A DNA stretch of 64,000 nt from contig JBMORX010000010.1 of the NCBI GenBank assembly GCA_049322615.1, positions 25,416-89,415 on the forward strand, in the 5' to 3' direction. The notes beneath the pieces are model-generated. The model was not told the origin of the DNA. It worked only from the letters and a program-made list of their open reading frames with translations, and did not search any database. Made by a program: the position numbers and the translations under genes. Shown one piece after another: positions 21,500 through 47,164 of the stretch (the stretch's first letter is position 1; the number at the start of each line of letters is the position of its first letter). This stretch comes from Patescibacteria group bacterium (GTDB lineage: Bacteria > Patescibacteriota > Microgenomatia > CAYGWK01).

Positions 21500-21637
21500 T
21501 TTAACTTGCGGCTTTATTGTGCGTAGGCATAAAGTGGAACGTCAATATTAAATCGGTTAAAAGTGTGGTATACTTTCTCCAGATAAGCAAAGAGAGAGTT
21601 CGTATCTAGGCTCTCTTGGCTCACTGATTCGGAGAAT

Positions 21638-21748
21638 CGGAATACTCGGAAAACTCGGAGTATCAGTGTATCAGATAATCTGATTATCAGATTTTTCTGA
21701 TTTCTCTGGCTCGCTGAGTATTCTGAGTTTTCTGATCCTCTGGAACTT
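21638..21748 (+). repeat. Repeat family A copy 1 (TCAGA/CTGA-rich, about 130 bp), immediately upstream of tRNA-Lys
   Basis: Aligns with 31119-31250 and 45040-45208: ctcggaaaactcggag..tcagat..ctgattatcagat..ctgagttttctgatYctctgRaac. Confidence 0.8.
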
Positions 21749-21823
21749 GGGCCCGTAGCTCAATGGCAGAGCGCCAGCCTTTTAAGCTGGGCGTTGGAGG
21801 TTCGACTCCTCCCGGGCTCACCA
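21749..21823 (+). tRNA. tRNA-Lys (UUU), CCA encoded
   Basis: GGGCCCG/CGGGCTC acceptor; anticodon stem CCAGC/GCTGG with loop CTTTTAA; T-loop TTCGACT. Confidence 0.85.
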
Positions 21824-21934: not shown

Positions 21935-22171
21935 ATGCATTACGTTTATATTTTAAGATTAGAAAACGATACATTTTATACAGGTTATACAAACGATTTA
22001 AAGAGAAGACTTATTGATCACAAAGGTGGTAATACGCCACATACGAAAAAATTTAAGCCAGTAGAATTGGTTTATTATTCAGCCTTTAAAAACAAAACAA
22101 GAGCTTTAGGTTTTGAAAAATATCTAAAATCTGGATCAGGAATTGCTTTTAGAAATAAAAGGTTAATTTGA
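21935..22171 (+). CDS. GIY-YIG nuclease superfamily protein (UPF0213/YhbQ-like, 78 aa)
   Basis: YVYILRLENDTFYTGYTNDLKRRLIDH is the GIY-YIG core; RBS aaggagga upstream. Confidence 0.75.
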   Translation: MHYVYILRLENDTFYTGYTNDLKRRLIDHKGGNTPHTKKFKPVELVYYSAFKNKTRALGFEKYLKSGSGIAFRNKRLI

Positions 22172-22337: not shown

Positions 22338-22681
22338 ATCTTCGGTATGAGATAGAAGTTTTCGCCAAGCTTGCAACCACGGAAGCACAGAAGGTTGCAG
22401 AAGCACAGAAAGTGCCCCGCTTGGCGGGGCTTTTCAGTTTTACATACCTTGAAAAATGCACCTTAATAAGTGAATAGAAAATCTATTCACATCCTTGACA
22501 ACCGCGCTCAGCGCGGTTTAAGCCGAGCTCAGCTCGGCAATCAAGATGTGACAGGAAACGAACAAAAGTTCGATTTCTTGCCCGCCTAAATTTTCGCACT
22601 CGGCCTTTCAGTACTATTCGTACACGCCTCGTGCCAAAATTTTTGGCGGACTGCAAAAATTGAACTTCGTTCAATTTTTTT

Positions 22682-22724
<43 letters not shown>

Positions 22725-23478
22725 TAGGCATGCAAGTCGATCGGTCGTTCGTGTCTCACTTTCGTTCGACACTTACTCCCTCAATAGCAAATATTAAATA
22801 GTAAAAATCAAAAATACATAGTAAACATTAAAAATATTTAAATTTTGATATGTATATTTACTATTTAATTTTTAATATTTAATTTTGAGCGAGTGGTGAG
22901 CGGGAGCGAGACACGAGCGATAGAGGCAGACGGGTGAGTAATGCGTACCAACCTACCTCCAAGTGAAGCATAGCCATTCGAAAGGATGGGTAATACTGCA
23001 TACGGTGGGTGGAGTTCTAAGGGTAGAAATGAAAAATGAAAATAGAAAAAATAAGCAAGCTTGTTGCTAGCGCAATAAAAATGACAATTAAAAATTTTAA
23101 AATTTTACATTGTAATTTTTCATTTTTATTTTTTAGTTTTTAATTTTATCAGTTTATTTAGCAACTTTTACTTTTAGATCTCCATCCATCAAAGAGAGTA
23201 ACTTCTCGCTCGGAGATGGGGGTGCGTCCTATCAGCTTGTTGGTGGGGTAAAAGCCTACCAAGGCGATGACGGGTAGCTGGACTGAGAGGTCGGTCAGCC
23301 ACAAGGGGACTGAGAGACGGCCCCTACACCTACGGGTGGCAGCAACTAGGAATCGTTCGCAATGGGGGAAACCCTGACGACGCGACGCCGCGTGGAGGAT
23401 GAAGGCCTTCGGGTTGTAAACTCCTTAATCCCGAACGATAGCGAGGGAGGATTAAGCACCCACTAACTACGTGCCAGC

Positions 23479-23721
23479 CACGTACAATTTTTGCGATGGC
23501 TGGTGGCGCGTAGTCTAAATCCGACTATATGCTGGGAACTCTTTTGATGTCCGCAAACAGTGTTGTGGTTTTTATGACCCGCGTCAAAAGACAATCAGCA
23601 GGCAACCCGACGTTCAGTTTACATAAACGTGGGAAGTCCTCAGAGACTATACGTCGGATTCCGATAGAATCGGGAAAGATATAGTCCAAATGTTACGTAG
23701 CAAAAATGTTACGTGGCCAGC
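23479..23721 (+). mobile_element. Group I intron (no ORF) at the 16S 515-region
   Basis: Splits GTGCCAGC|..|AGTTGCGGTAA; contains the P7-type core cagagactatacgtcgg...gatatagtcc. Confidence 0.6.
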
Positions 23722-24548
23722 AGTTGCGGTAAGACGTAGGGTGCAAGCGTTATCCGGATTTATTGGGCGTAAGGCGTTTCGTAGGCGGTCCGATGAGTCC
23801 CGACTTAAATACCCCGACTCAATCGGGGAAGTGGTTGGGATACTATCGGACTTGAGGTTTTTGGGAGGTGCTGGAATTCGCGGTGAAGCAGTGAAATGCG
23901 TTGATATCGCGAGGAACACCAAGGGCGAAGGCAAACACCTAAAAAACATCCCGTAAATTGCCTTCGGCAATAACGGGACTCCCGTAAAGAGCAATCTTTA
24001 TGGGAATTCTGTATGCCAAAAGAATTGAGGGAACCCCGTTAGTCTTGAGCGTAAGCGAAAGACTTTACGGGGCCTGACGCTGAGGAACGAAAGCTAGGGG
24101 AGCGAAAGGGATTAGAGACCCCTGTAGTCCTAGCCGTAAACTATGCTCGCTAGATGCCCGGCTTGTGCTTCGCACAAGTTTCCGAATTAATCCGAATGCT
24201 TGGTTTTGGTTTAAAATTTATTCGGATAAATTCGGATGAAGAACTTGACCTAGAAGATCAGTCTCAACATCCGAATAAATCCAAATAAGAAAAGCAAACA
24301 AACACATTAGGATTAAATTCGGATATCTCGTGCGGAGCACGAGCTAGGTGTCGTAAGCTAACGCGTTAAGCGAGCCGCCTGGGAAGTACGGCCGCAAGGC
24401 TAAAACTTAAAGGAATTGACGGGGAGCTGCACAACCAGGGGAGCGTGTGGTTTAATTCGAGACGAAACGAAGGACCTTACCTGGGTTTGACATGCCGACG
24501 TTCTAGTCCGATGAAAATCGGACAAGTCCGCAAGGAGGTCGGCACAGC

Positions 24549-24579
<31 letters not shown>

Positions 24580-25015
24580 GGGTGTTGGCTTCAGTGCCAT
24601 AACGAGCGCAACCCCTATTGTCTGTTAAATTTTCAGACGAAACCGCCCCGCCTATTTTGTCGCGGTTGTTAACACTATTTATTCTTGAGTTACAACCTGA
24701 ATTTAGTTAATAATGGCGGCGCAAGGGCGAATAGCCCTGCCCTATTCGGGCACAGCGCCGCGATTGGAATCAACGGCGGCAAATATGGCGGGGAGGAAGG
24801 AGGGGACGACGTCAAGTCAGCACGGCGCTTATGTCCAGGGCAACACACACACTACAATGGACAAAAACAGCGAGTTGCAAGCACGTAAGTGTAAGCTAAT
24901 CTCGGAAATTTGTCCTCAGTTCAGATTGTGGGCTGCAACTCGCCCACATGAAGATGGACTTGGTAGTAATCGCGGGTCAGCAAACCGCGGTGAATACGTT
25001 CTCAGCTCTTGTACA

Positions 25016-26053
25016 AAAATTGCGCCTACCGGTTTGGTTTTCCATTCCGTTGAAATCGGAACCAAAAAGAATAATTTTTGGAAGCGAAATAACATCCTCC
25101 GATGGTGACATCGAAGCGAGAAGGGTTAAAGTAGCATTTTCTAGCTTGCAGTCGAGACGGTCCCGCCTATTTGATGACCTTTCGTACAAATAGGGAAATC
25201 ACTTATTCTAATTTTGCCTTTAAAAATAAGCAAAATAGGCGGGATATTTGGGCTCGAGATGGAAAAGAAAGGAAAACCAAATTACGTAGGGAGATCTGCC
25301 ATTGACCCACCAAAAAATTGCAGCATGAGCCGCAGTTGAAATCAACTAAGGCGAATGCTAAAATTTAGGCGGGTAGTTGTCGGTGTGAACTAACAACGTA
25401 AATGGTAGAAGTCTGCAGAGTGCGTAGTACCCCGCCGAAGCGCACCACGAGCCGTGTATGAATAATACTGAAAAGGCGAGTGGCAAGCGAATGGCTGGGG
25501 GAAGGCACGTAAACTATCCAAATGGGCGCATACAAAATCATCAGTCCTTGGTATATCGTTGGTTTTACCGAGGGAGAAGGTTGTTTTGCCATAATTCTTT
25601 CGAGACATAAAACAAAGAAGGCTAAAAGGGATGCCGGACTTTGTTTTGAAATTGAGCTTCGGGGGGACGACAAACCAATCCTTGAAAGAATTCAAAAGAG
25701 GCTGGGGTGTGGTCAAATTATTGATCTTGAGTACGAGCGTTATGGTTGGAAACCCCATGTGAAGTATGTCGTTAGAAAGCAAAAAGATCTTTTCTTTAAG
25801 GTGATTCCTTTTTTCAAACAGTTTCCGCTACAAGGCAAAAAACAAAAAGATTTTGAGCTTTTTTGCCAAGCCGCGGAAATTATAAAAAATAGGGAACACT
25901 TAAAAGATGATGGAATCAAAAAACTTGAAAAAATCAGGGAATTTATGAATGAGCGCCGACCGATGTTTGGATAGTCATTCGCGAGGGTGCGGGAAAACCG
26001 CGTGCCCCGTGAGAATAGAAAATATTTTGAGCAATCAGATATTTATCTATGAA
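25016..26053 (+). mobile_element. Intron at the 16S 1391-type site carrying a LAGLIDADG HEG
   Basis: Exon junction cttgtaca|cactgcccgtca reconstitutes CTTGTACACAC(C/T)GCCCGTCA. Confidence 0.65.
25522..25974 (+). CDS. LAGLIDADG homing endonuclease (single-motif, 150 aa)
   Basis: WYIVGFTEGEGCFAI motif; inside a 16S intron. Confidence 0.8.
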   Translation: MGAYKIISPWYIVGFTEGEGCFAIILSRHKTKKAKRDAGLCFEIELRGDDKPILERIQKRLGCGQIIDLEYERYGWKPHVKYVVRKQKDLFFKVIPFFKQFPLQGKKQKDFELFCQAAEIIKNREHLKDDGIKKLEKIREFMNERRPMFG

Positions 26054-30932: not shown

Positions 30933-30961
30933 TTGACAAGACAAAATGCCTTTGTTATAAT
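30933..30961 (+). promoter_or_regulatory. Consensus sigma70 promoter (TTGACA-17-TATAAT) upstream of the tRNA/23S/5S block
   Basis: gcTTGACAagacaaaatgcctttgtTATAATgc. Confidence 0.65.
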
Positions 30962-31118
30962 GCTTTTTAGTTAGGAGTCAGTCCTAAGTTTAATTCATGA
31001 GAAGCCTAAGAAATTTAATAAGTCGTTTAAGACAGTTTTTGCGTGGGAAATAGTTTGGGCTTTTCAAAGCACATTAAGCTGGCTCCGATAAGGAGCCATT
31101 TTGTTTCGGAGTAATCAG

Positions 31119-31244
31119 AAGACTCGGAAAACTCGGAGAATCAGGCGGTCAGATTGTCAGAAATTCTGATTATCAGATTTCTCTGATCTTTCCGACGCAC
31201 TGAGTTTTCTGATTCTCTGAAACGAGGGCCCGTAGTTCAACTGG
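31119..31244 (+). repeat. Repeat family A copy 2, followed by tRNA 5'-fragments
   Basis: Aligns with 21638-21767, including the GGGCCCGTAG(T/C)TCAA tRNA-Lys-like 5' end. Confidence 0.8.
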
Positions 31245-31293
31245 CCCCGTAAATCCGCCTTCGGCGGTAACGGGGTAAACAGAACATTTTGGG

Positions 31294-31458
31294 CCGTTAG
31301 CTCAACTGGCTAGAGCAGCCCGCCAAAAATTGTGAGAAGGGCCTATGGCGTAACGGTAGCGCATTTCGTTTGCAACGAAAAGGTTGGGAGTTCGATTCTC
31401 CCTAGGTCCACACAATTTAGGCGGGAGGTAGAGGGTTCGAATCCCTCACGGTCCACTA
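31294..31458 (+). other. tRNA-like split gene: 5' half (31294-31338) and 3' half (31411-31458) flanking a complete tRNA-Ala
   Basis: 5' half GGGCCGTTAGCTCAACTGGCTAGAGCAGCCCGCC; 3' half TAGGCGGGAGGTAGAGGGTTCGAATCCCTCACGGTCCA; the acceptor and CCCGCC/GGCGGG stems are complementary; 7-bp inverted repeat AATTGTG/CACAATT brackets the inner tRNA. Confidence 0.5.
31339..31410 (+). tRNA. tRNA-Ala (UGC)
   Basis: GGGCCTA/TAGGTCC acceptor; anticodon stem TTTCG/CGAAA with loop TTTGCAA; T-loop TTCGATT. Confidence 0.85.
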
Positions 31459-33116
31459 GCACCTTAACAATTGAAGAGAACCGCATTTATTCTAATTCAT
31501 GGCCTAATTTTTATTAAAGCAAATGGTGGATGCCTTGGTGGCAAGAGCCGAGGAAGGACGCGGCAGGTGGCGATACTCGTCGGGGAGAAACCTAGCATTC
31601 TTTGATCCGGCGGTTTCCGAATGGGGCAACCCGGCGCAGTGAAAACTGCGTCAAGCGCTGTTTCACTGCGATATTAAATAGTAAATAGTAAAAATCAAAA
31701 ATACATATTAAAATTCAAAAAGATTTTTCTCTTTAAAATTTTACTATCTATATTTACTATTTAATTTTTAATATTTGATATCGCTGCGAAGCAGCGTTGG
31801 GGAACCACCCGAACTGAAACATCTAAGTAGGGTGAGGAAAAGATAGAGCTTGTGCTTCGCACAAGTTTCCGAATGAATCCGAATGCTTTTCATTGGTCTA
31901 AAATCTATTCGGATAAATTCGGATGAAGAACTTGACTTGAAAGTTAGTTTCAACATCCGAATAAATCCGAATAAACAAAATCAAGAAAGCGTATTAGGAC
32001 TAAATTCGGATACTCGCGCGAAGCGCGAGCAGATTCCGCAAGTAGCGGTGAGCGAAAGCGGAAAAGCCTAAACTCGTGCGGAGCACGAGTTCGCTGAACT
32101 ACGCTGATTCATACGCTGAACTACGCTGAAACCTAATTTTCTTCTGCGTTAATCCGCGTCTTGATCTGCGTTTATCGGCGATCTCATGCTTCGCATGAGA
32201 GTTGGAGGACTCCAACGTGGGAGTGTCGAGGGTAGTCGAAGGACATGGAATTGTCCACCAGAGAAAGTGAAAGTCTTGTAGACGAAACCTGAAACACCCC
32301 TAGGAGCACCTAAGTACCATGGGGCAAATACCCTGTGAGAATCTGGCCGAACCATCGGCTAAGGCTAAATACTCTTGCTGACCGATAGTGTACCAGTACC
32401 GTGAGGGAAAGGTGAAAAGAAGGGTTTAAAACCTAGTGAAATAGAACCTGAAACCGTTTGCTTTCAAACAGATAGAGGCCCGGGAGTGAATTCTGTTTAC
32501 AATCTTCAGCGATTTTCAGCGTTTTGTTCAGCGTCAATCAGCGCTAATCGCTGATAAACGCGGATAACTACGCGGATTAACGCTGAAATAATTGTAGATA
32601 GTACTCACTTCCGAGCTAATATCGTGCCTATTGAAGAATGAACCGGCGAGTAACTATGTGTTGCGTTTTGGTTAATCCCATTTAAATGGGAGAAGCCGTA
32701 GCGAAAGCGAGTCTTAATAGGGCGTTAAGTAGCACATAATTGACCCGAAACCGGGCGAGCTAACCATGGGCAGGGTGAACCCGCCTAAATCGGCGAGGGG
32801 AGGCCCGAACCCGTTGCTGTTGCAATAGCATGGGATGACCGGTGGTTAGAGGTAATATGCCAAACGAGCCCGGAGATAGCTGGTTCTCCCCGAAATATAT
32901 ATAGGTATAGCCTTAATTTTAACTCCTCCTGAGGTAGAGCACTGGATGGTCTCGGCAGCGCAAGCTGTCGTGATCAACCAAACTCCGAATTCGGGGGCGA
33001 GAAATTGAGGAGTCAGAACGACCGGGCTAAGCTGGTCGCTCGAGAGGGAAACAACCCAGACTTTCGTCTAAGGTCTCAAAACTTTGGCTTAAGTGGAAAA
33101 GGAAGTATTTACCCTA

Positions 33117-33153
<37 letters not shown>

Positions 33154-34125
33154 AAAAGAAAGCGTAACAGCTCACTGGAAGACCCGTCTCGACTCAGTCG
33201 AGCCGAGGCGGATTGGGTGGGTGCGCCGAAAATTTACCGAGGCTAAAAGCCAATACCGAAGACAAAGGTTTCGTGCAGAGCACTGCTCTGCGCGAGGCAG
33301 TAGGGGAGCGTCCCGATAGCAGTGAAGTCCTTCCGCAAGGTCAGGATGGAGCTGTCGGGAGTGAGAATGCCGGTATGAGTAGCGAAAGTCCGATAAGAAT
33401 TCGGACCGCCGAAAACCCGAGGTTTCCCCCGCAATGTTCGTCAGCGGGGGGTTAGTCGGTCCTAAGCCAAGTCCCCGATTTAATCGGGGAGTAGGCGATG
33501 GAGGAGCCGTTTATATTCGGCTACAGGAAAGAAATCATTTTTAGTCGGGGATTGACAGAAATGGAAGAGCCAAGTCTCGAAATGACACGGGATTTAAGTT
33601 ATAAGGCAGTTCCGATAGGAAAATCCATCGGAACGTTTTAACCGAGTAACAAATAAGAGTCCAACCCGCAAGGGAAGGGCAATTTGGTAAGCTTTCAATT
33701 CTTGAAAAAAGATTCGCGACGAACCCGAATAGTCTTACCATTCGCCTTAGTACATTTGTACTGCGGCTTATGGAGCGACTTAACGGGTCTAGGATTTCTT
33801 TTTTACCGTACCGCAAACCGACACAGGTGGGTTGGACCAGAAGTCTAAGGCGAGCGGGAGAAGGAAGTTTGAGGAACTCGGCAAAAAATCTGGGCGTAAG
33901 CTATGCAAGATGCCCTCCCCCACACCAAATTTTGGTGTGGGGGTGCAACAAAAGATTGTTTGGCGACTGTTTAACTAAAACACAGGCCTCTGCAAAGGGT
34001 AATACCCAAGGTATAGGGGCTGAAGCCTGCCCAGTGCCGGAAGGTTATGGGGACTTGTCCTTCGGACATTTGCCCGGAGGGCGAGAAACTTAAGCCCCGG
34101 TGAACGGCAGCAGTAACTATAAACG

Positions 34126-34538
34126 AAAGTATTGTAGTTATAAAACTTGGCTATATGCTGGAAAGTCCGTCCTGAAAAAAGAATAGCATGCAGTGGTACC
34201 CTTGATACCGTGATGTTGTACTATTGTAATAGTACAGTGAAACAAAAGGCGATATAAAGGGTAAAAATCCACCTGCTGCGGACAATCAGCAGGAAAGACC
34301 AAGAAATATCAAATATAAAATATCAAAAAGTAAATATACAGATTAAAAATAAAATATTTTAATTTTGCTTTGTATTTTTGATATTTAATCTTTAATTTTT
34401 GATTTTCTTCGGAATCCTCAGAGACTATACGCCAAGGTCGCCGAATTGGCGACATGAGATAGTCCGACCTCCCAAGAGATTGGGAGAGCCGTAAACAATC
34501 GGTCTTAGGGACGTCAAACGTCCCGAGTAACAAAGTGA
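34126..34538 (+). mobile_element. Group I intron (no ORF) at the 23S 1917-type site
   Basis: Splits GTAACTATAAACG|..|GGTAGCGAAGTCCCTCGTCGGGTAAGTTCCGACC; P7 core cagagactatacgcc...gagatagtccgacc resembles the Tetrahymena CAGACUAAAUGUCGG...AUAUAGUCGGACC. Confidence 0.6.
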
Positions 34539-35137
34539 ACTGTTCGATGGTAGCGAAGTCCCTCGTCGGGTAAGTTCCGACCCGCACGAAAGGCTAAACG
34601 ACCAAACAACTGTCTTGAACTTTCACCCGGCGAAATTGAAATGGCTGTGAAGATGCGGCCTACATGCTCTTGGACAAAAAGACCCCGTGGAGCTTTACTA
34701 TAGCTTGGCATTGGGTTGGGTTTTGAAATTGTCTAGCGTAGGAGGGAGCTTGTGCGTAGCACAAGCACGCGGATAAACGCTGATTTTGACGCCGATTGAC
34801 GCTGATTTTTTTTCAGCGTTCTTCAGCGTTTTATTCAGCGTAATTCAGCGTGCTCGCGCTGCGCGCGAGCATTAATGTAACACCTCTCTTTTCAAGACTT
34901 CAATTCTTACCTATGGGCTTTGCAAACAAGCTCGGGAAAAGTGTCAGGTGGGTAGTTTGACTGGGGAAGTCGCTTGCTAAAAGGTAACGCGAGCGCACAA
35001 AGGTCGGCTTAGTCCGGATGGAAATCGGACCGAACGTGCAAAGGCGAAAGCCGGCTTGACAGTGAGACCGACAGGTCGAACTGGTGCGAAAGCAGGTCTT
35101 AGTGATCCCCCGCCTGTTCGTGGGAACGGCGGGGCTT

Positions 35138-35174
<37 letters not shown>

Positions 35175-35217
35175 GGACCCGAGAGTCCATATCGACGGTC
35201 CGGTTTGGCACCTCGAT

Positions 35218-36126
35218 AAACAAGAGTCGATTGTCGAGGTTAAACTCAGCTCATAACGGTGAAATCCTTATCATTTTAGAACCCAGCTTGAGAATGTTAA
35301 AATAAATGAGAGGACAATACCGTGGGAAGTTATTGGGAAAACAAAAACTTACAGAGACGATGGGTTCTTCTTAAGAAAGGCTTGCGATTGACACAAAAGC
35401 AGAGATCAGTGTTAATTGGTTCCTTACTTGGAGATGGAACATTGAGACGTGGCATAAGAGCAATCAATGTTAATTTTAAAGTTGAACACGGTTTGCGTCA
35501 GAAAGAATATGTTTTCTGGAAGTATCTGGTTTTCAGAAATTGGGTATTTACTGAACCTAAATTGAGTTACAGATATAGAGATAATGGGAAGAGATATTTA
35601 AAATCTTGGTGGTTTAGGACAGTTCGGCACCCTGTTTTAACCAAGTATTGGAAGCATTTTTACTCTGGCAGGAAAAAGATTATTCCAGATTTAATCGACA
35701 AACTGTTTGATTCATTGGTTTTGGCTGTTTGGGTCATGGATGACGGGTGTTATCAACACGGAAGAATTGATATTAGCACCTATGCTTTTACACTTAAAGA
35801 AATCCATCGTTTACAGGATGCATTAAGGACGGTGTTTGCTCTTGAATCTCACTATTTCAAGGATAGAGAAAAAGGTTATCGGATATATTTCTCTGTTTCG
35901 GAGACAAAGAAAGTTATAAATTTTATTCGTCCTTATATAATTCCTTCAATGCAGTATAAAATTGGTTTATCCCAACAACCCCGTAACGACTGATCCCTGA
36001 AGTATGCGCGCAAGTGCTTAATTTTGGGGTGAGATGGAAAGAATTCTTTCTTCCATCACACGCTGAGTCCTGGACTGTTTGGCCCAGGAAAGGTATAGTC
36101 TACACCATTAGTAATATTGGATTTTG
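35218..36126 (+). mobile_element. Intron with a LAGLIDADG HEG in 23S domain V (after GGCACCTCGAT)
   Basis: Exon CACCTCGAT|..|GTCGGCTCATCGCATCC. Confidence 0.65.
35322..35993 (+). CDS. LAGLIDADG homing endonuclease (double-motif, 223 aa), GTG start
   Basis: LIGSLLGDGTL and LAVWVMDDGCY motifs; RBS gagagga. Confidence 0.8.
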   Translation: MGSYWENKNLQRRWVLLKKGLRLTQKQRSVLIGSLLGDGTLRRGIRAINVNFKVEHGLRQKEYVFWKYLVFRNWVFTEPKLSYRYRDNGKRYLKSWWFRTVRHPVLTKYWKHFYSGRKKIIPDLIDKLFDSLVLAVWVMDDGCYQHGRIDISTYAFTLKEIHRLQDALRTVFALESHYFKDREKGYRIYFSVSETKKVINFIRPYIIPSMQYKIGLSQQPRND

Positions 36127-36723
36127 TGGTCGGCTCATCGCATCCTCCCGCTGAAGTAGGCGGGAAGGGTTGGACTGTTCGTCCATTAAAGCGGTACGTG
36201 AGCTGGGTTCAGAACGTCGTAAGACAGTTCGGACTCTATCCAGAGCATGCGTTGATTTCTGAGGGGAGCTCTCCTTAGTACGAGAGGACTAGGAGGGAGG
36301 AATCCCTGGTGTGTCGGCTGTTCCGTCAGGAGCATCGTCGAGTAGCCACATTCCTAGTGGATAACCGCTGAAAGCATCTCAAGTGGGAAGCCCACCCCAA
36401 GATTAGAAATCGTTAAAGACCCGTCGAAGATGACGACGTTTCCCCCTTCGCTGCTTTGCAGCTTCGGGGGGACCCCGCGTAGCTCGCAAGAGCGAAGTGG
36501 GGGATAGGCTGGAGGTTAAAGGGCAGTAATGCCTTAAGCTTACCAGTACTAATCGGTCAAAAGAATTAGGCCATGAACTAGAATAAATGAAGAGGCGTAA
36601 AAGTTTTTGCGCTTAAGCCTTTCGGTCTCCGGAGCGGACTGGAGCCACTCCTTCCCATTCCGAACAGGATAGTGAAACAGTCCAGCGACCCGTAAAATTT
36701 GCGCAATTTAAGATTTCAAAGTA

Positions 36724-38243: not shown

Positions 38244-38354
38244 ATAAGTACCAATGTCAAATAAATACCAATAAATACAAATGACCAATAAAAAAATTGT
38301 GAATTTGACATTTGAAATTGGTATTATTTGAAATTACGAGGAGGAGCAAGCATT

Positions 38355-39779
38355 ATGCGAGCGACGACGAAGTTTGTCTGCCAGCAATGTGGATATGAGT
38401 CGGCTGGGTTTTTGGGCCGCTGTCCAAATTGCCAAACCTGGGGAAGTTTAGTTGAGACGTTGGTGCCAGGAGAAGAGACCCGCCTTCGCCAAGGCTTCGG
38501 CGGGCAAGGGGCGGAGGTAAAACCAGTGAGTCTTGGAGAAATTAAAGTTTCCACCCTTCAAAGAATTTCCACCAAAATCCAAGAGTTTGATCGGGTTTTG
38601 GGTGGAGGAATCGTCCCAGGCTCGGTTATTCTTTTGGCTGGCGACCCAGGAATTGGAAAATCAACCCTGCTTCTTCAGGTAGCAGCAGAAATAAGTGATA
38701 AGGGCGAAGGGCGAAGTGGGAAGCAGGGAAATTTAGTTCTCTACGTTTCGGGAGAGGAATCGCCGGAGCAGATAAAAATTCGAGCCGAAAGGCTGGGGAT
38801 TAAGAATAAAAATATTTTGTTTTTGACCGAGACGAATGTAGAAGCGGTAATTGAGGAGATAGAGAAATGGGAAATGAGAAATGGGTCGGGAAGTGGGGGT
38901 GGGAACTGGGAAAACAAAAATCATCTCACTTCTCACATCTCACCCCCACCCATTCTAGTTATTATCGATTCCATCCAAACCCTCTATACTTCCTCTTTAA
39001 CCGGAACCGCGGGGAGCGTTGGTCAGGTAAGAGAGTCTGCGGGAAAATTACTCAATTTTGCCAAAACGCACGGAATTCCCATGTTTTTTATTGGTCATGT
39101 AACCAAAGAAGGGGCGATTGCCGGACCAATGGTTTTGGCTCATTTAGTTGATACGGTTTTGTTTTTTGAAGGAGAGAGATTTCAGAGTTTAAGAATCCTT
39201 AGGAGTTTTAAAAATCGTTTTGGACCAACCGATGAAGTTGGCGTTTTTGAAATGGGAGAAAAGGGACTTGAGGAGGTCTCAAATCCTTCAAAATTATTTT
39301 TAGAAGAAAGAAGAGAAAAAGTTCCTGGATCAGTCGTTACTTGCCTAATGGAGGGTTCAAGACCCTTGCTTTGCGAAATTCAGGCGTTGACTGTTCCCAG
39401 CCAACTTGCCATTCCTCGCCGGGTTGGGCAGGGAATAGACTGGAATAGACTTCAGCTTTTGGTGGCGGTTTTATCAAAAAGAGCAGGCCTTCCCCTCTCT
39501 TCTTTTGATGTCTTTGTTAATGTCGCTGGCGGAATTAAGGTGGCAGAACCTGGAGTAGATTTAGCTGTCTGTCTTGCTATTGCCTCATCTTTTGCCGATA
39601 AGCCCTTGGACCCCAAAATCTGCGCCTTAGGCGAAGTTGGACTGTTAGGAGAAGTCAGACAGGTCGGAAATTTAGAAAAAAGAGCCAAAGAAGCCCGCCG
39701 ACTGGGATTCACAAAAATTTTAAGCCCCAGGGAAGTCAGAACCGTTTCTTCAGCCATCAAAACCTTCATCGGCAAATAA
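38355..39779 (+). CDS. radA: DNA repair protein RadA (Sms)
   Basis: N-terminal Zn finger CQQCGYESAGFLGRCPNCQTW; Walker A LLAGDPGIGKSTLLLQ; KNRFG; Lon-like C-terminal domain. Confidence 0.85.
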   Translation: MRATTKFVCQQCGYESAGFLGRCPNCQTWGSLVETLVPGEETRLRQGFGGQGAEVKPVSLGEIKVSTLQRISTKIQEFDRVLGGGIVPGSVILLAGDPGIGKSTLLLQVAAEISDKGEGRSGKQGNLVLYVSGEESPEQIKIRAERLGIKNKNILFLTETNVEAVIEEIEKWEMRNGSGSGGGNWENKNHLTSHISPPPILVIIDSIQTLYTSSLTGTAGSVGQVRESAGKLLNFAKTHGIPMFFIGHVTKEGAIAGPMVLAHLVDTVLFFEGERFQSLRILRSFKNRFGPTDEVGVFEMGEKGLEEVSNPSKLFLEERREKVPGSVVTCLMEGSRPLLCEIQALTVPSQLAIPRRVGQGIDWNRLQLLVAVLSKRAGLPLSSFDVFVNVAGGIKVAEPGVDLAVCLAIASSFADKPLDPKICALGEVGLLGEVRQVGNLEKRAKEARRLGFTKILSPREVRTVSSAIKTFIGK

Positions 39780-44758: not shown

Positions 44759-45040
44759 AAAATGCCATTTACTGATCAAACATTAAAATGCCGTGATTGC
44801 GGCAAGGATTTTGTTTGGACTGCCTCAGAGCAGGAGTTTTACCAACAAAAAGGTTTTACTAATGCTCCGGTTCGCTGTCCAGATTGCCGGCAGGCAAAAA
44901 AGCAACAGAGAATGGGAGAAAGACAAATGTTTACCATTACCTGTGCCCAATGCGGAAAAGAGGACCAAGTTCCCTTTGAACCAAAAGGAGACAGACCAGT
45001 TCTTTGTCGAGAGTGCTTTAGAAAATCAAGGGGAGCGTAA
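44759..45040 (+). CDS. Double zinc-ribbon protein (93 aa, hypothetical)
   Basis: Strong RBS gagaggaggtgag; CRDCGKDF..CPDCRQ and CAQCGKED..CRECF CxxC pairs. Confidence 0.55.
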   Translation, partial: KMPFTDQTLKCRDCGKDFVWTASEQEFYQQKGFTNAPVRCPDCRQAKKQQRMGERQMFTITCAQCGKEDQVPFEPKGDRPVLCRECFRKSRGA

Positions 45041-45208
45041 TTCGGAAAACTCAGAGAAATCGGTGTGTCAGAAAAATCAGATAAGTCAGACAGTCAGAGT
45101 GTCAGATTTTCTGAGTCTCTGGAATTCTGATTCACTGGCGCTCTGAGTATTCCGACCGCGTCTGACGCGGTTCCGAGTTTTCTGATCCTCTGACTCTCCG
45201 AATTAGGG
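45040..45208 (+). repeat. Repeat family A copy 3
   Basis: ttcggaaaactcagagaaatc..tcagaaaaatcagataagtcagacagtcagagtgtcagattttctgag..ttccgagttttctgatcctctga; contains the hairpin ccgcgtctgacgcgg. Confidence 0.75.
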
Positions 45209-47164
45209 TGTCGGGCTAACCTCTGGCTCGACTCCAGTTGGGAGGCTTAGAGGAGGCTTTATTCCTGGGGGAAGCGGCTGGGGTTGACTAAGGGTTTCTG
45301 ATGGTTTTTGCGATTCTTTTTCCGCCTTTTCTCCTAATTTTTTCTTTAGGGCTTCAAGTTCGGAATTTGCTTTAGTAAAGTCATCAGAGTCTTTAGGAAC
45401 CAGGGAAAGAGTTGTTTCCATTGCGGAAACTGCTTTCTCGTAGTCTTTCTTTTCCCTTAAGGCAGCCGAAAGATTATAATGACCGTTGGCAAAATTTGGT
45501 TTAAGGGAAACTGTCTGTTCAAATAATCTTTGCGCCTCATCCCAGTTCTGCAGACTAAAATAAACTCCACCTAGGGAAAGTCTCAATTGGGGATTTGCTG
45601 GGTCAAGGCTGATTGCCTGCTGATAGGCGGCGATGGTCCAAGAATCTGACCCTTGGGCAAAATTAATTAAGGAACGATAAATTCCCGCTAAGTTTTCCCA
45701 AGAAATTGAATTTCTTGGGTCTAAAGCGACGGCTCCCTTTCCCTCTCTGATTGCCTGCTGGACTAAAATTGAGATATTCTGCCTGTCTTGGTCTGATAGT
45801 CCGCCAGCTGGCGGATTTGCCGCCAGGGAATTGGCTAAAGCCAAGTTTGTTTGCGAATAGGTCAGCCGATAATTAACTCGATAAGGAGCAAGGGTGATGG
45901 CTTGAATTTGGAAATTATAAGTTTCTGTTCCCTTGTTTTGGGCTAAGGCATCCAAGGAGCGCTTAAAATAAACTTCGGCGGCATAGGCTCGACCGATAAA
46001 GTACAAAGTGGAGAGGGCGAAGAGTGAAGTGGGGACGAAGATCACCCAGGGCAGGATTTTTGATTCCTCGGAGTATTCTTTGGTTGGAAGGCTTGCGGCC
46101 AAAAGAGCAAGTAAAAAGTAAAAAGTAAAAAGTAAAAGAAAATTGGCAGGAAGGACAAAAAACAGGAGCAGAGAGACTAAGAGACTAAGATACAAAGTGC
46201 TCTTAATATCATAATATCTTAATATCTTAATCTCCTTTAATATTTGCCAGATTAACCAGAGAAACATTCCTAAACCAATTACACCAACTGTTGTCAAAAG
46301 TTGAAGATAGAAGTCCGAAGAGACCCCGAATTTAACTGCCCAAAAATCTGAAAGATTGAAAGCCAAAGGTCTTAGTTGATTGAAGGCGACAATAAAACTC
46401 GTTGGACCAACCCCAAAAAGGGGAGCAAATTTTAAGGTTTCAATGGCAATCTGCCAGCCGGTTTGGATTGGGAGAAGGAGGGGTCGGGCACTGGTAAGCA
46501 ATTGATAAAGAGAAACACCTAATCCACCTAAAATAAATACCAATAATACCAATAAATACCAATAAGTACCAATAGAGAATCGGCGTTGATCAGCTTTTAA
46601 ATCAGCGTAAATCCGCGTGATGGTAAGCACCAGCGCCACCACCAGAAAGGTCGCCAAAGGTAAAAGACCACCGGCTGGGGTAAAGGTTTTTTGAACAAGC
46701 CAGACGGGAAGATTCAAATTCCAGACCTTGGCAAATTCTAAGAAAGAGAAAATGCTAATAAGTGCCAGGATACTGGCACTAGCAATATAGCAATATAGCA
46801 ATTTAGCAATATAGTTTTCTTTGAGATTGTTAACAATGATGAAGTAGAGAAGAGTTAGCGCCAGAATCGTTCCCGCTCCCCCAGGGAGAATGAGGGCTTC
46901 GGCTTTATTTGGGCTGACCGCAAAGGTTGAGAGCAAAAAAGCGGCGGTAATGGCTAAAACTGGGAGATCAAATGGTGTTCTTCTGAAAACAACCTTCTTT
47001 TCAAGAACCATCTTCAAAAGCCAAACAATTAGCAATATAGCAACATAGCAATAAAGCAAGATATTTTTATTAAATTCATAAAATTCCGAAGTTATCGGCA
47101 GGAAAAACAAAGGCAAAAGAAAAACTAAGATAATAAGCCCCCAGTTTATGATTTTGTTAAGCAT
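45203..47164 (-). CDS. Polytopic membrane protein with C-terminal TPR repeats (O-antigen-ligase/Wzy-like + TPR architecture)
   Basis: About 12 TM helices over the N-terminal 400 aa; C-terminal TPR-like repeats (AIYRSLINFAQGSDSWTIAAYQQAISLDP.., AQRLFEQTVSLKPNFANGHYNLSAAL); Pro-rich tail. Confidence 0.55.
   Translation of the reverse strand: MLNKIINWGLIILVFLLPLFFLPITSEFYEFNKNILLYCYVAILLIVWLLKMVLEKKVVFRRTPFDLPVLAITAAFLLSTFAVSPNKAEALILPGGAGTILALTLLYFIIVNNLKENYIAKLLYCYIASASILALISIFSFLEFAKVWNLNLPVWLVQKTFTPAGGLLPLATFLVVALVLTITRIYADLKADQRRFSIGTYWYLLVLLVFILGGLGVSLYQLLTSARPLLLPIQTGWQIAIETLKFAPLFGVGPTSFIVAFNQLRPLAFNLSDFWAVKFGVSSDFYLQLLTTVGVIGLGMFLWLIWQILKEIKILRYYDIKSTLYLSLLVSLLLFFVLPANFLLLFTFYFLLALLAASLPTKEYSEESKILPWVIFVPTSLFALSTLYFIGRAYAAEVYFKRSLDALAQNKGTETYNFQIQAITLAPYRVNYRLTYSQTNLALANSLAANPPAGGLSDQDRQNISILVQQAIREGKGAVALDPRNSISWENLAGIYRSLINFAQGSDSWTIAAYQQAISLDPANPQLRLSLGGVYFSLQNWDEAQRLFEQTVSLKPNFANGHYNLSAALREKKDYEKAVSAMETTLSLVPKDSDDFTKANSELEALKKKLGEKAEKESQKPSETLSQPQPLPPGIKPPLSLPTGVEPEVSPTP

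What the first reader, a model, noticed from the sequence alone, without database searches (positions are those of the whole stretch)
21598..21767. Repeat family A: about 130-150-bp TCAGA/CTGA-rich element in three copies, two of them fused to tRNA 5' ends
Copies are at 21638-21748, 31119-31244 and 45040-45208. They are built from iterated motifs (ctcggaaaactcggag, tcagat, ctgattatcagat, ctgag, ttctgat) and contain several short palindromes. Copy 1 abuts tRNA-Lys. Copy 2 ends in a tRNA-Lys-like 5' fragment (GGGCCCGTAGTTCAACTGG), so a piece of the tRNA was co-duplicated with the element. Copy 3 starts exactly at the stop codon of the Zn-ribbon gene. This could be a tRNA-promoter UP/regulator-binding array or a small non-autonomous mobile element that targets tRNA genes.
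Basis: seen in the sequence. Interest (0 to 1): 0.55.

Follow-up and report, generated by a model that had tools for sequence, protein, structure and literature searches.

The report
Selfish palindromic repeat of Patescibacteria
The three copies belong to a widespread, apparently undescribed family of about 90-160-bp palindromic repeats in Patescibacteria (CPR bacteria); relatives sit between genes, in tRNA/rRNA spacers, inside rRNA genes and in frame inside essential protein genes, much like the palindromic elements of Rickettsia, so they are not a tRNA-promoter device.

Summary
Three related copies (about 81% pairwise identity) lie at 21628-21744, 31100-31226 and 45041-45202. Each is a long imperfect palindrome: a left array of TCRGA words and a right array of TCYGA words, spaced 8-9 nt.

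A pattern scan of JGI metagenomes returned at least 120 loci, giving 101 non-redundant relatives with the conserved termini TTCRGAAAACTCRGAAWACTC. A profile built from those termini alone hits only the three window copies in the 64 kb.

- Only 1 of 101 relatives lies within 100 nt of a tRNA.
- 29 of the 104 elements analysed (all from metagenome loci) lie in frame and stop-free inside real genes (LeuRS, RadA, DnaX and others). They read as hydrophilic peptides and avoid TGA.
- Others sit between genes inside operons, and three sit in or just before a 23S gene.
- One filled/empty orthologous site was found.
- There is no sense-strand G:U bias and no element-specific arm complementarity, which argues against a dedicated structured RNA.

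The host is a Patescibacteria MAG, and one element-bearing RadA is from Candidatus Woesebacteria.

Verdict: a new MITE/RPE-like selfish repeat family. The promoter or regulator reading is not supported, and "targets tRNAs" is not supported. However, a similar word-array palindrome precedes tRNA-Lys in one relative.

The parts
21628..21744 (.). Family A copy 1: an imperfect palindrome of TCRGA then TCYGA words, lying between a by-eye extended -10 and tRNA-Lys.
   Evidence: fold -56.0 kcal/mol, z -6.8. The nhmmer terminus profile hits both arms (E 5.6e-8 and 6.2e-6).
31100..31226 (.). Family A copy 2 (core 31105-31224), in the leader upstream of tRNA-Ala/23S/5S.
   Evidence: fold -63.4 kcal/mol, z -8.2. 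The profile hits both arms (E 1.8e-5 and 6.8e-3).
45041..45202 (.). Family A copy 3. It fills the whole gap between two convergent stop codons and carries an extra side hairpin, ACCGCGTCTGACGCGGT, in the right arm.
   Evidence: The profile hits both arms (E 1.5e-6 and 4e-3). The same region appears in the Logan contig L166.
21749..21823 (+). tRNA-Lys(UUU), which begins 4 nt after the copy 1 hairpin.
   Evidence: ARAGORN and Rfam tRNA at 69.7 bits.
31228..31246 (+). A tRNA 5'-end fragment, GGGCCCGTAGTTCAACTGG, directly after copy 2.
   Evidence: By my own by-eye comparison it matches the tRNA-Lys 5' end at 17 of 19 positions and the 5' half of the tRNA-like gene at 31291 at 16 of 19.
21566..21574 (+). 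A possible extended -10 (TGGTATACT) about 55 nt upstream of copy 1. If it is used, copy 1 is part of the tRNA-Lys leader transcript.
   Evidence: Seen by eye. The promoter scan did not list it, so this is an inference.
30933..30961 (+). A perfect sigma-70-type promoter match (TTGACA-17-TATAAT with TG), about 140 nt upstream of copy 2.
   Evidence: 12 of 12 matches.
31080..31098 (+). A terminator-like hairpin followed by TTTTGTTT, immediately before copy 2.
45038..45040 (+). The TAA stop of the zf_Tbcl zinc-finger gene. Copy 3 begins at the next base.
45203..45205 (-). The stop codon of the convergent TPR gene (45203-47164). Copy 3 ends at the preceding base.

Best explanation
The three copies are members of a widespread family of short (about 90-160 bp), non-coding, palindromic selfish repeats of Patescibacteria. 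The family is MITE-like in anatomy and RPE-like in behaviour.

Anatomy (shown). Each element has two opposed arms. The left arm is an array of about 5-9 oriented words TCRGA. The right arm holds the mirror words TCYGA, so both are instances of TCNGA. Words are spaced 8 or 9 nt apart. The outer units are conserved (TTCRGAAAACTCRGAAWACTC and its mirror), and the interior is variable.

Spread and persistence (spread inferred, locations shown). The family has spread to many sites, by a trans-acting enzyme that is not identified. It persists wherever an insertion is tolerated:
- in A/T-rich gene boundaries inside operons;
- in tRNA and rRNA leaders and spacers;
- inside rRNA genes;
- in frame in surface loops of proteins, where it appears to be translated as a hydrophilic low-complexity peptide.

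Unit number changes by gain and loss of 8-9-nt units.

The window copies. All three lie outside genes.
- Copy 1 sits 5' of tRNA-Lys, where one relative (L168) carries a similar word-array palindrome.
- Copy 2 sits in the leader of the tRNA-Ala/23S unit. It may have arisen by a local duplication that also carried a tRNA 5' end.
- Copy 3 fills the gap between two convergent genes.

If transcribed, copies 1 and 2 would form leader hairpins that are removed with the leader when RNase P cuts the tRNA 5' end (inferred). No role in promoter activity is needed to explain them.
For: Family membership:
- A metagenome scan with a pattern shared by the three copies gave at least 120 loci, most with the same architecture.
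- These reduce to 104 non-redundant palindromes, including the 3 window copies.
- A terminus profile built only from metagenome copies hits the three window copies on both arms and nothing else in the 64 kb.

Architecture:
- Word spacing is 8 nt (326 cases) or 9 nt (325 cases), and termini are conserved.
- 94% of words obey the left/right polarity.
- The distance between paired termini has a median of 117 nt, and no member is large enough to be autonomous.

Presence/absence and persistence:
- L116 carries an element directly after a TAA stop where the orthologous loci L140 and L095 have none.
- Orthologous filled sites keep their termini while interior units turn over.

Copies inside genes:
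- 29 of 104 lie in frame and stop-free.
- Pfam domains match on both sides of the insert in LeuRS, RadA (three loci, same site), DnaX, an amine oxidase, a GT1 glycosyltransferase and DUF2298.
- The window's own RadA lacks the insert at that site.
- On the sense strand, right-arm words are TCCGA in 61 of 137 cases inside ORFs against 94 of 402 in intergenic copies. This avoids TGA.

Other locations:
- Intergenic copies lie between complete, distinct genes of operons, such as rpsC|rplP and atpH|atpA.
- In L138, two copies lie within the span matched as 23S rRNA and one lies just upstream of it.

No tRNA link: 1 of 101 relatives is within 100 nt of a tRNA.

Host:
- A 100%-identical GIY-YIG protein is annotated as from a 'Patescibacteria group bacterium' MAG.
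- The RadA carrying an insert in L088 is KKQ74991.1 of Candidatus Woesebacteria.

Known analogue: RPEs are about 150 bp and often inserted in frame in Rickettsia ORFs (PMC10969869).
Against: - No transposase or autonomous partner has been identified.
- No consistent target-site duplication was found.
- Only one filled/empty site was found. The 'empty' orthologues carry a single word-like remnant (TTTTACGAA in L140, TTCAGATAA in L095), so deletion cannot be told from insertion.
- Sampling is biased.
- Genes in the loci were called with a crude longest-ORF method.
- Translation of the in-ORF copies is inferred from sequence alone.
- The L168 element upstream of tRNA-Lys has the word architecture but is not hit by the terminus profile at E<=0.01.
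- Both window rRNA transcription units are preceded by a copy, and L138 also has one before its 23S gene. Some preference for, or use in, stable-RNA leaders is therefore not excluded.
- The copy number in the source genome is unknown.
Confidence: 0.78

Rival explanations
1. The array is a set of binding sites (iterated TCAGA half-sites) for a transcription factor or an UP-like activator of tRNA and rRNA promoters.
For: - Copies 1 and 2 both precede stable-RNA transcription units: tRNA-Lys..16S and tRNA-Ala/23S/5S.
- L138 has a copy directly upstream of its 23S gene.
- L168 has a similar palindrome 5' of tRNA-Lys.
- The words have a palindromic core (TCNGA) and regular spacing, as binding sites might.
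Against: - The promoter-like sites lie upstream of the copies, not downstream. Copy 1 ends 4 nt before the tRNA, leaving no room for a promoter.
- Copy 3 lies between convergent stop codons.
- 1 of 101 relatives is near a tRNA.
- 29 of 104 lie inside ORFs, and many lie between genes of one operon.
- The spacing of 8-9 bp is out of phase with the DNA helix.
Confidence: 0.04
2. The element acts as a structured RNA: a long leader or intergenic hairpin serving as an RNase III processing site, a terminator or attenuator, or an mRNA-stabilising element, as shown for some REP, ERIC and Correia elements.
For: - The predicted hairpins are very stable (z -5.4 to -8.2).
- Copies 1 and 2 fold 14-19 kcal/mol better on the + strand, which is the strand of the tRNA and rRNA genes.
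- Relatives fill intergenic gaps inside operons and must be co-transcribed.
- Copy 3 sits where a bidirectional terminator would be.
- Copies within the span of a 23S gene could be RNase III-excised intervening sequences (from my own knowledge).
Against: - Over the family, G:U versus A:C pairs on the sense strand of co-directional intergenic copies number 273 versus 267, so there is no strand selection.
- The arms of one element are no more complementary at non-word positions than arms taken from different elements (57% against 60-61%), so there is no compensatory maintenance.
- In-ORF copies are shaped by coding constraints and not by pairing (A:C excess, 246 against 136).
- No Rfam family matches.
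- No U-tract follows the hairpins.
Confidence: 0.1
3. The arrays serve the host at the DNA level. They could be clusters of TCNGA sites for a DNA methyltransferase or restriction-modification system, or loading sites for a nucleoid or replication protein, dispersed because they are useful.
For: - Every word is an instance of the palindromic motif TCNGA. From my own knowledge, TCNGA is a known restriction-modification specificity (Hpy188I).
- Word identity, polarity and spacing are conserved while the spacers vary. This suggests that the words themselves are what is recognised.
Against: - TCNGA is not depleted or enriched in the rest of the window. There are 264 sites against about 240 expected from base composition, including about 40 inside the copies (and my arithmetic).
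- Presence/absence between close relatives, location in protein loops and varying copy interiors fit a parasite better than a required site.
- Recognition of the words by the element's own mobilising enzyme explains the same features.
Confidence: 0.06

Closest known systems
Rickettsia palindromic elements (RPE)
   Same: - Palindromic repeats of about 100-150 bp in a reduced-genome lineage.
- Many copies.
- Found in intergenic DNA and, unusually often, in frame inside unrelated housekeeping genes, where they add a peptide without destroying the protein (PMC10969869).

Here, 29 of 104 elements are in frame in LeuRS, RadA, DnaX and other genes.
   Different: - The host phylum is different (Patescibacteria/Woesebacteria).
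- Sequence relatedness to RPEs was not tested.
- The arms here are arrays of 8-9-nt units around a TCNGA core, with unit-number variation.
- The encoded peptide is not a conserved ORF. It is a frame-dependent low-complexity string (SENSE.., QKTQK.., ..SDSPSF).
- None of the three window copies is inside a gene.
Bacterial MITEs (for example Correia/NEMIS, ERIC, RUP, BOX)
   Same: - Small and non-coding, with terminal inverted repeats.
- Multi-copy and mostly intergenic, often co-transcribed with flanking genes.
- Fold as hairpins.
- Show presence/absence polymorphism.
   Different: - No target-site duplication was found and no parent insertion sequence is known.
- No sequence match in E. coli genomes, so the element is not ERIC, REP or BIME.
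- The whole element is made of short iterated words. It is not a unique core flanked by terminal inverted repeats.
REP/BIME elements with RAYT transposases
   Same: Extragenic palindromes that fill the gaps between genes of an operon.
   Different: - REPs are 20-40 nt, G+C-rich and tagged by GTAG or CGTC (PMC3733652 abstract).
- These elements are 90-160 nt and A+T-rich, with the termini TTCRGAAAAC.
- An associated RAYT gene was not looked for.
Eukaryotic foldback (FB) transposons (from my own knowledge)
   Same: Long inverted arms that are themselves tandem arrays of short subrepeats, with variable unit number.
   Different: FB elements are eukaryotic, kilobase-scale, and some carry genes. 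The likeness is one of architecture only.
Intervening sequences and expansion inserts of CPR rRNA genes (from my own knowledge: Brown et al. 2015)
   Same: - In L138, family A copies lie within the span matched as a 23S gene.
- The window's 16S and 23S genes each carry a 90%-identical hairpin insert of a second word-repeat family.
   Different: The window's family A copies lie outside the rRNA genes. Whether such inserts are excised from the rRNA was not tested.

Membership tests
MITE (miniature inverted-repeat transposable element) | Small size (under about 500 bp) with no transposase gene | tested here: met
   Window copies span about 117-162 nt. The family median between paired termini is 117 nt and the largest palindrome is 241 nt.
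MITE (miniature inverted-repeat transposable element) | Terminal inverted repeats conserved across copies | tested here: met
   The terminus TTCRGAAAACTCRGAAWACTC is conserved at both ends in inverted orientation. The profile hits both arms of each window copy.
MITE (miniature inverted-repeat transposable element) | Target-site duplication flanking each copy | tested here: inconclusive
   No direct repeat recurs. Flanks are only A/T-rich at positions -1 to -3, and end definition is imprecise.
MITE (miniature inverted-repeat transposable element) | Multiple dispersed copies and insertion polymorphism | tested here: met
   There are 3 copies in 64 kb, and several contigs carry 2-3 copies. L116 is filled while L140 and L095 are empty at one orthologous site. 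That is a single case.
MITE (miniature inverted-repeat transposable element) | A related autonomous element with the same termini that supplies the transposase | not tested
   No pair of termini more than about 620 nt apart was seen in the fetched loci, but these were selected by a pattern that demands a short element. The genome-wide search was not possible.
Rickettsia palindromic elements (RPE) | Palindromic repeat of about 100-150 bp inserted in frame in protein-coding genes and compatible with protein function | tested here: met
   Met at the family level, not in the window. 29 of 104 elements are in frame and stop-free, with Pfam domains on both sides and TGA avoidance. Function of the host proteins was not tested.
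Rickettsia palindromic elements (RPE) | Sequence membership in one of the RPE families of Rickettsia | not tested
   No RPE sequences were at hand. The host is Patescibacteria, so I class the element as an analogue and not as a member.
REP/BIME | 20-40-nt G+C-rich palindrome with a GTAG or CGTC tag | tested here: not met
   The sequences are 117-162 nt and A+T-rich with no such tag. There is no blastn match in 5,426 E. coli genomes.
UP element / upstream activator array of stable-RNA promoters | Lies directly upstream of the -35 hexamer of a promoter that drives the tRNA or rRNA | tested here: not met
   No promoter-like site lies inside or after the copies. The candidates lie upstream of them. 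Copy 3 has no downstream gene on either strand.
Any Rfam RNA family | Covariance-model match at or above the gathering score | tested here: not met
   No match at the copies at the gathering score. Around copy 2, only chance-level miRNA hits appeared (E about 0.6).

The most novel reading that the evidence does not exclude
Patescibacteria may carry a whole, so far undescribed superfamily of 'word-array' palindromic elements:
- family A, built on TCNGA words;
- a second family, built on CCGAAT words, found in the window's 16S and 23S genes;
- composite forms with outer ACGAATA arrays;
- further families glimpsed as peptides in a LeuRS loop.

If so, these elements would be a major source of the short insertions that mark CPR rRNAs and essential proteins. 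They would be mobilised by an unknown enzyme that reads short oriented words and not unique terminal repeats. That would make them an independent counterpart of the Rickettsia RPEs in another reduced-genome lineage.
Probability: 0.4. Interest if true: 0.7.

Novelty: new member of a known kind. Interest (0 to 1): 0.55.

Why it matters
CPR/Patescibacteria are known for odd insertions in their rRNA genes and proteins. A dispersed palindromic repeat found between genes, in tRNA/rRNA spacers, within a 23S gene and in frame in LeuRS, RadA and DnaX offers a concrete, testable source for part of that oddity.

It would also be a second, independent case of the 'selfish DNA inside protein-coding genes' phenomenon, so far known mainly from Rickettsia.

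There are practical consequences too:
- Such repeats break assemblies. A Logan contig for this genome ends inside copy 1.
- They inflate protein lengths.
- They can be mistaken for regulatory arrays or small-RNA genes.

For the window itself the result is sobering. The neat position next to tRNA genes does not indicate a promoter device.

Tried and rejected
- **Genome collection scan.** I scanned genome contigs with the 18-mer GAGTTTTCTGATYCTCTG. It gave 40 hits against about 35 expected by chance.
- **Viral contig scans.** Two patterns gave only chance or partial hits.
- **Strand-specific RNA idea.** Copies 1 and 2 fold much better on the + strand. I dropped the idea after the family showed sense G:U versus A:C of 273 versus 267 and no element-specific complementarity.
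- **Target-site duplication.** The search found nothing consistent.
- **Exact-protein look-ups for near relatives.** These returned only Logan contigs of the same sample, SRR32167786.
- **Peptide searches.** A profile of in-ORF peptides against 5.8 billion proteins gave no hit at E<=0.01. phmmer with the 39-aa open frame of copy 1 against 1.84 billion representatives gave no hit at E<=0.001. The queries were too short and too low in complexity, so the number of proteins carrying in-frame copies stays unknown.
- **blastn** against E. coli genomes, plasmids and phages gave no match.
- **Literature searches.** Searches on CPR/Patescibacteria with palindromic, MITE, RPE or in-frame terms, and on the motif itself, found no description of this family.
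- **Terminus profile on L168.** The tRNA-Lys spacer element was not hit at E<=0.01, so I call it a word-array palindrome of the same architecture and not a proven family member.

Full report
**1. The observation**

The three copies are real. A three-way alignment has 67% mean column identity, with a shared 5' block TCGGAAAACTCRGAG and a shared 3' block GAGTTTTCTGATYCTCTG. Gapped pairwise identity is about 81%. A gapped pattern common to all three matches exactly three times in the window, with none expected in 100 shuffles. A word-density scan finds only these three strong clusters.

Each copy is more than a collection of motifs. The left half is an array of TCRGA words and the right half is an array of the mirror words TCYGA, so the whole folds as one long imperfect hairpin:
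- copy 1: -56.0 kcal/mol, z -6.8;
- copy 2: -63.4 kcal/mol, z -8.2;
- copy 3: -65.5 kcal/mol, z -5.4.

Refined extents are 21628-21744, 31100-31226 and 45041-45202.

**2. Surroundings in the window**

The window carries a 16S gene with a group I intron (22676-25051), a 3.8-kb 23S gene (31503-35313), a 5S gene and seven tRNAs, all on the + strand.

- **Copy 1** ends 4 nt before tRNA-Lys(UUU). That tRNA is followed by a small GIY-YIG ORF, tRNA-Gln, an 11/12 promoter match and the 16S gene.
- **Copy 2** lies downstream of a perfect promoter match (30933-30961) and of a terminator-like hairpin (31080-31098). It lies upstream of a tRNA 5' fragment, a tRNA-like gene that encloses tRNA-Ala, and the 23S gene.
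- **Copy 3** fills exactly the 162 nt between the TAA stop of a zf_Tbcl zinc-finger gene and the stop of a convergent TPR gene.

No promoter-like site lies within or just after any copy.

**3. Host**

A protein 100% identical to the window's GIY-YIG ORF is annotated as from a 'Patescibacteria group bacterium' MAG, on a 161,724-nt contig. The next-best named hits are from Candidatus Woesebacteria. Exact-protein look-ups otherwise found only Logan contigs of one run, SRR32167786. One of those contigs ends inside copy 1.

**4. The family**

One scan of JGI metagenome contigs used TCAGANNNTCTGAN{30,60}GAGTTTTCTGA. A few were chance hits, but the large majority show the same architecture.

After palindrome alignment and removal of duplicates I kept 104 elements, including the 3 window copies. 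Their features are:
- Like words are 8 nt apart in 326 cases and 9 nt apart in 325 cases. The outer units are 9-mers such as TCAGAAAAC, TCGGAAAAC and TCAGAATAC.
- Termini are sharply defined as TTCRGAAAACTCRGAAWACTC, preceded by an A/T-rich flank.
- 94% of strict words obey the left/right polarity.
- The distance between paired termini has a median of 117 nt, with 5-95% between 89 and 152 nt.

An nhmmer profile built from 171 metagenome termini, without the window copies, hits the window only at the three copies, and on both arms of each (E from 5.6e-8 to 7e-3). I take that as an independent membership test.

**5. Where family members sit**

By a crude longest-ORF gene call:
- 42 lie between co-directional genes.
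- 4 lie between convergent genes and 4 between divergent genes.
- 29 lie inside long ORFs.
- The rest are at contig ends.

The co-directional cases lie between complete, different genes of operons: rpsC|rplP, atpH|atpA, gatB|dnaE and trx|trxB. They often run from just after the stop codon to a few bases before the next start.

The 29 in-ORF cases are in frame and free of stops. They read as hydrophilic strings such as SENSENSE, QKTQKTQ and RHSDSPSF. Ten host ORFs tested against Pfam are real genes, and most have domain matches on both sides of the insert: two LeuRS, three RadA with the insert at the same site, DnaX, an amine oxidase, a GT1 glycosyltransferase, DUF2298 and an ABC ATPase.

The window's own RadA (38328-39779) has an unrelated short loop at that site. 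One insert-bearing RadA is the deposited protein KKQ74991.1 of Candidatus Woesebacteria bacterium GW2011_GWB1_38_5b.

In L138, two elements lie within the span matched as a 23S rRNA gene and a third lies directly upstream of it.

**6. Is it tied to tRNAs?**

No. The 706 kb of loci hold 22 tRNAs, and only one of the 101 metagenomic elements lies within 100 nt of one. That is about the chance expectation.

There is one notable exception by descent. The closest relative found through the GIY-YIG protein (L168, 81% identity) has the synteny tRNA-Glu, a 128-nt spacer, tRNA-Lys(UUU), GIY-YIG, tRNA-Gln. The spacer is filled by a palindrome of 13 TCNGA words with the same polarity that folds as a hairpin. 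Its termini are too divergent for the profile to hit.

A more distant relative (L169, 73%) keeps the synteny but has other small palindromes in the spacer. L170-L172 (67%) have none. The position 5' of tRNA-Lys therefore looks inherited within a narrow clade and is not a property of the family.

**7. RNA structure or DNA element?**

Copies 1 and 2 fold 14-19 kcal/mol better on the + strand, which at first suggested a transcribed hairpin. The family does not bear this out:
- On the sense strand of co-directional intergenic copies, G:U and A:C oppositions number 273 and 267.
- The arms of one element are no more complementary at non-word positions than arms from different elements: 57% against 60-61%, with alignment scores of 57.9 against about 52.

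The palindromy therefore lies in the shared termini and the polarity of the words, not in compensated base pairs.

In-ORF copies show the opposite bias, 136 G:U against 246 A:C on the sense strand. In the frame that would read TGA, the right-arm word is TCCGA instead of TCTGA: 61 of 137 in ORFs against 94 of 402 in intergenic copies. This is the mark of a translated sequence.

**8. Mobility**

At one site L116 carries an element directly after a TAA stop. The orthologous loci L140 and L095, with flanks about 77-85% identical, have only a few bases there. The 'empty' sites each hold one word-like stretch, so I cannot tell insertion from deletion.

At another orthologous site three loci all carry the element. 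The termini are conserved and the interior units have been gained, lost or changed. One LeuRS insert holds about ten tandem TCAGAAAAC units, which points to unit slippage.

I found no target duplication and no autonomous-size member. My sample was selected for short elements.

**9. Comparison with known elements**

- The anatomy is MITE-like: small, non-coding, inverted termini and many copies.
- The behaviour is that of the Rickettsia palindromic elements. A recent review describes these as about 150 bp and unusually often inserted in frame in unrelated genes (PMC10969869).
- It is not a REP/BIME, ERIC or other E. coli repeat.
- It is absent from the plasmid and phage collections and from viral contigs.
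- It matches no Rfam family.
- Arms made of tandem short units recall eukaryotic foldback elements (from my own knowledge).
- Eight literature searches found no description of this family. The library is incomplete, so this is weak evidence of novelty.

**10. A wider pattern**

- The window's 16S and 23S genes each hold a roughly 185-nt insert. The two inserts are 90% identical, are built from CCGAAT/ATTCGG words, and fold at -81 kcal/mol (z -11.4).
- Some family A members carry outer arrays of ACGAATA words.
- At the LeuRS site that holds family A in L126 and L060, 58 of 120 close homologues have a 28-residue loop. Most of the others have inserts of 14-66 residues, several of which look like translations of other repeats (NSKHEIRNKSKIQNSNDQN, ESGIMNHES, VIPAKAGI).

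This suggests several such families in Patescibacteria, but I did not test it further.

**11. Verdict**

The promoter or regulator reading is not supported. The mobile-element reading is supported, but without tRNA targeting.

The best explanation is a selfish, non-autonomous palindromic repeat family (confidence 0.78). The enzyme that moves it, any target duplication, its copy number in this genome and the fate of transcribed or translated copies all remain open.

Noticed in passing
window 24160-24348 (in 16S) and 31848-32032 (in 23S): A second repeat family. A roughly 185-nt insert occurs in both rRNA genes, and the two copies are 90% identical. It is built from CCGAAT/ATTCGG words between two tetraloop hairpins (CTTGTGC-TTCG-GCACAAG and CTCGCGC-GAAG-CGCGAG). 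It folds as one long hairpin (-81 kcal/mol, z -11.4).
   Followed up: partly
window 31291-31456: A complete tRNA-Ala(UGC) (31339-31411) is nested at the tip of the extended 'anticodon' arm of an outer tRNA-like cloverleaf. The outer structure has its own acceptor, D and T arms but no anticodon loop, and the minimum-energy fold reproduces the nesting. It is preceded by a tRNA 5' fragment and a GC-rich hairpin at 31228-31276.
   Followed up: partly
window 30933-31106: A perfect 12/12 sigma-70 promoter match with TG is followed about 110 nt later by a terminator-like hairpin and a T-run. The roughly 130-nt stretch between them folds with z -3.9 and has no ORF longer than 25 aa or Rfam match. It may be a small RNA gene or a leader attenuator in front of copy 2.
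   Followed up: partly
window 22676-25051, 23474-23703, 31503-35313, 36634-36686: The 16S gene is 2.4 kb and holds a group I intron. The 23S gene is 3.8 kb. A partial second 5S match lies just upstream of the 5S gene. 16S and 23S are separated by about 6.4 kb that holds ORFs and tRNA-Ile.
   Followed up: no
L138 1-1984: A partial 23S rRNA gene (model positions 1-913 spread over 1766 nt) has two family A elements (219-378 and 1001-1120) within its span. A third (1767-1984) lies directly upstream, after two tRNAs.
   Followed up: partly
P0121-P0240 (LeuRS homologues), loop between CxxCAKEGKSWF and GWYPVPE: The loop is a hot spot for insertions. 58 of 120 homologues have 28 residues there. Most others have 14-66 extra residues that resemble translations of other repeat families (NSKHEIRNKSKIQNSNDQN, ESGIMNHES, VIPAKAGI).
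   Followed up: partly
L046 1320-1510, L066 1355-1560, L142 845-1030: A composite subfamily. The family A element is flanked symmetrically by arrays of ACGAATA / TATTCGT words, with a conserved outer end ATCAACGAATWACGAAT.
   Followed up: no
L169 509-625: In a relative with the same tRNA-Glu / tRNA-Lys / GIY-YIG / tRNA-Gln synteny, the spacer holds two copies of a different unit in place of a TCNGA element. The unit is GGGTTTAYCCT plus an AAAAAG..CTTTTT palindrome.
   Followed up: no
window 21935-22171; L168, L169: A 78-aa stand-alone GIY-YIG ORF between tRNA-Lys and tRNA-Gln is conserved in position in related Patescibacteria. It has several hundred homologues (772 at E<=1e-10) of the same length.
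   Followed up: no
window copy 3 (45152-45172) and L098 around 380-400: A subfamily carries a small side hairpin centred on a TCNGA word. Its stem differs compensatorily between copies: CCGCG-TCTGA-CGCGG in one and CCAAG-TCTGA-CTTGG in the other.
   Followed up: no
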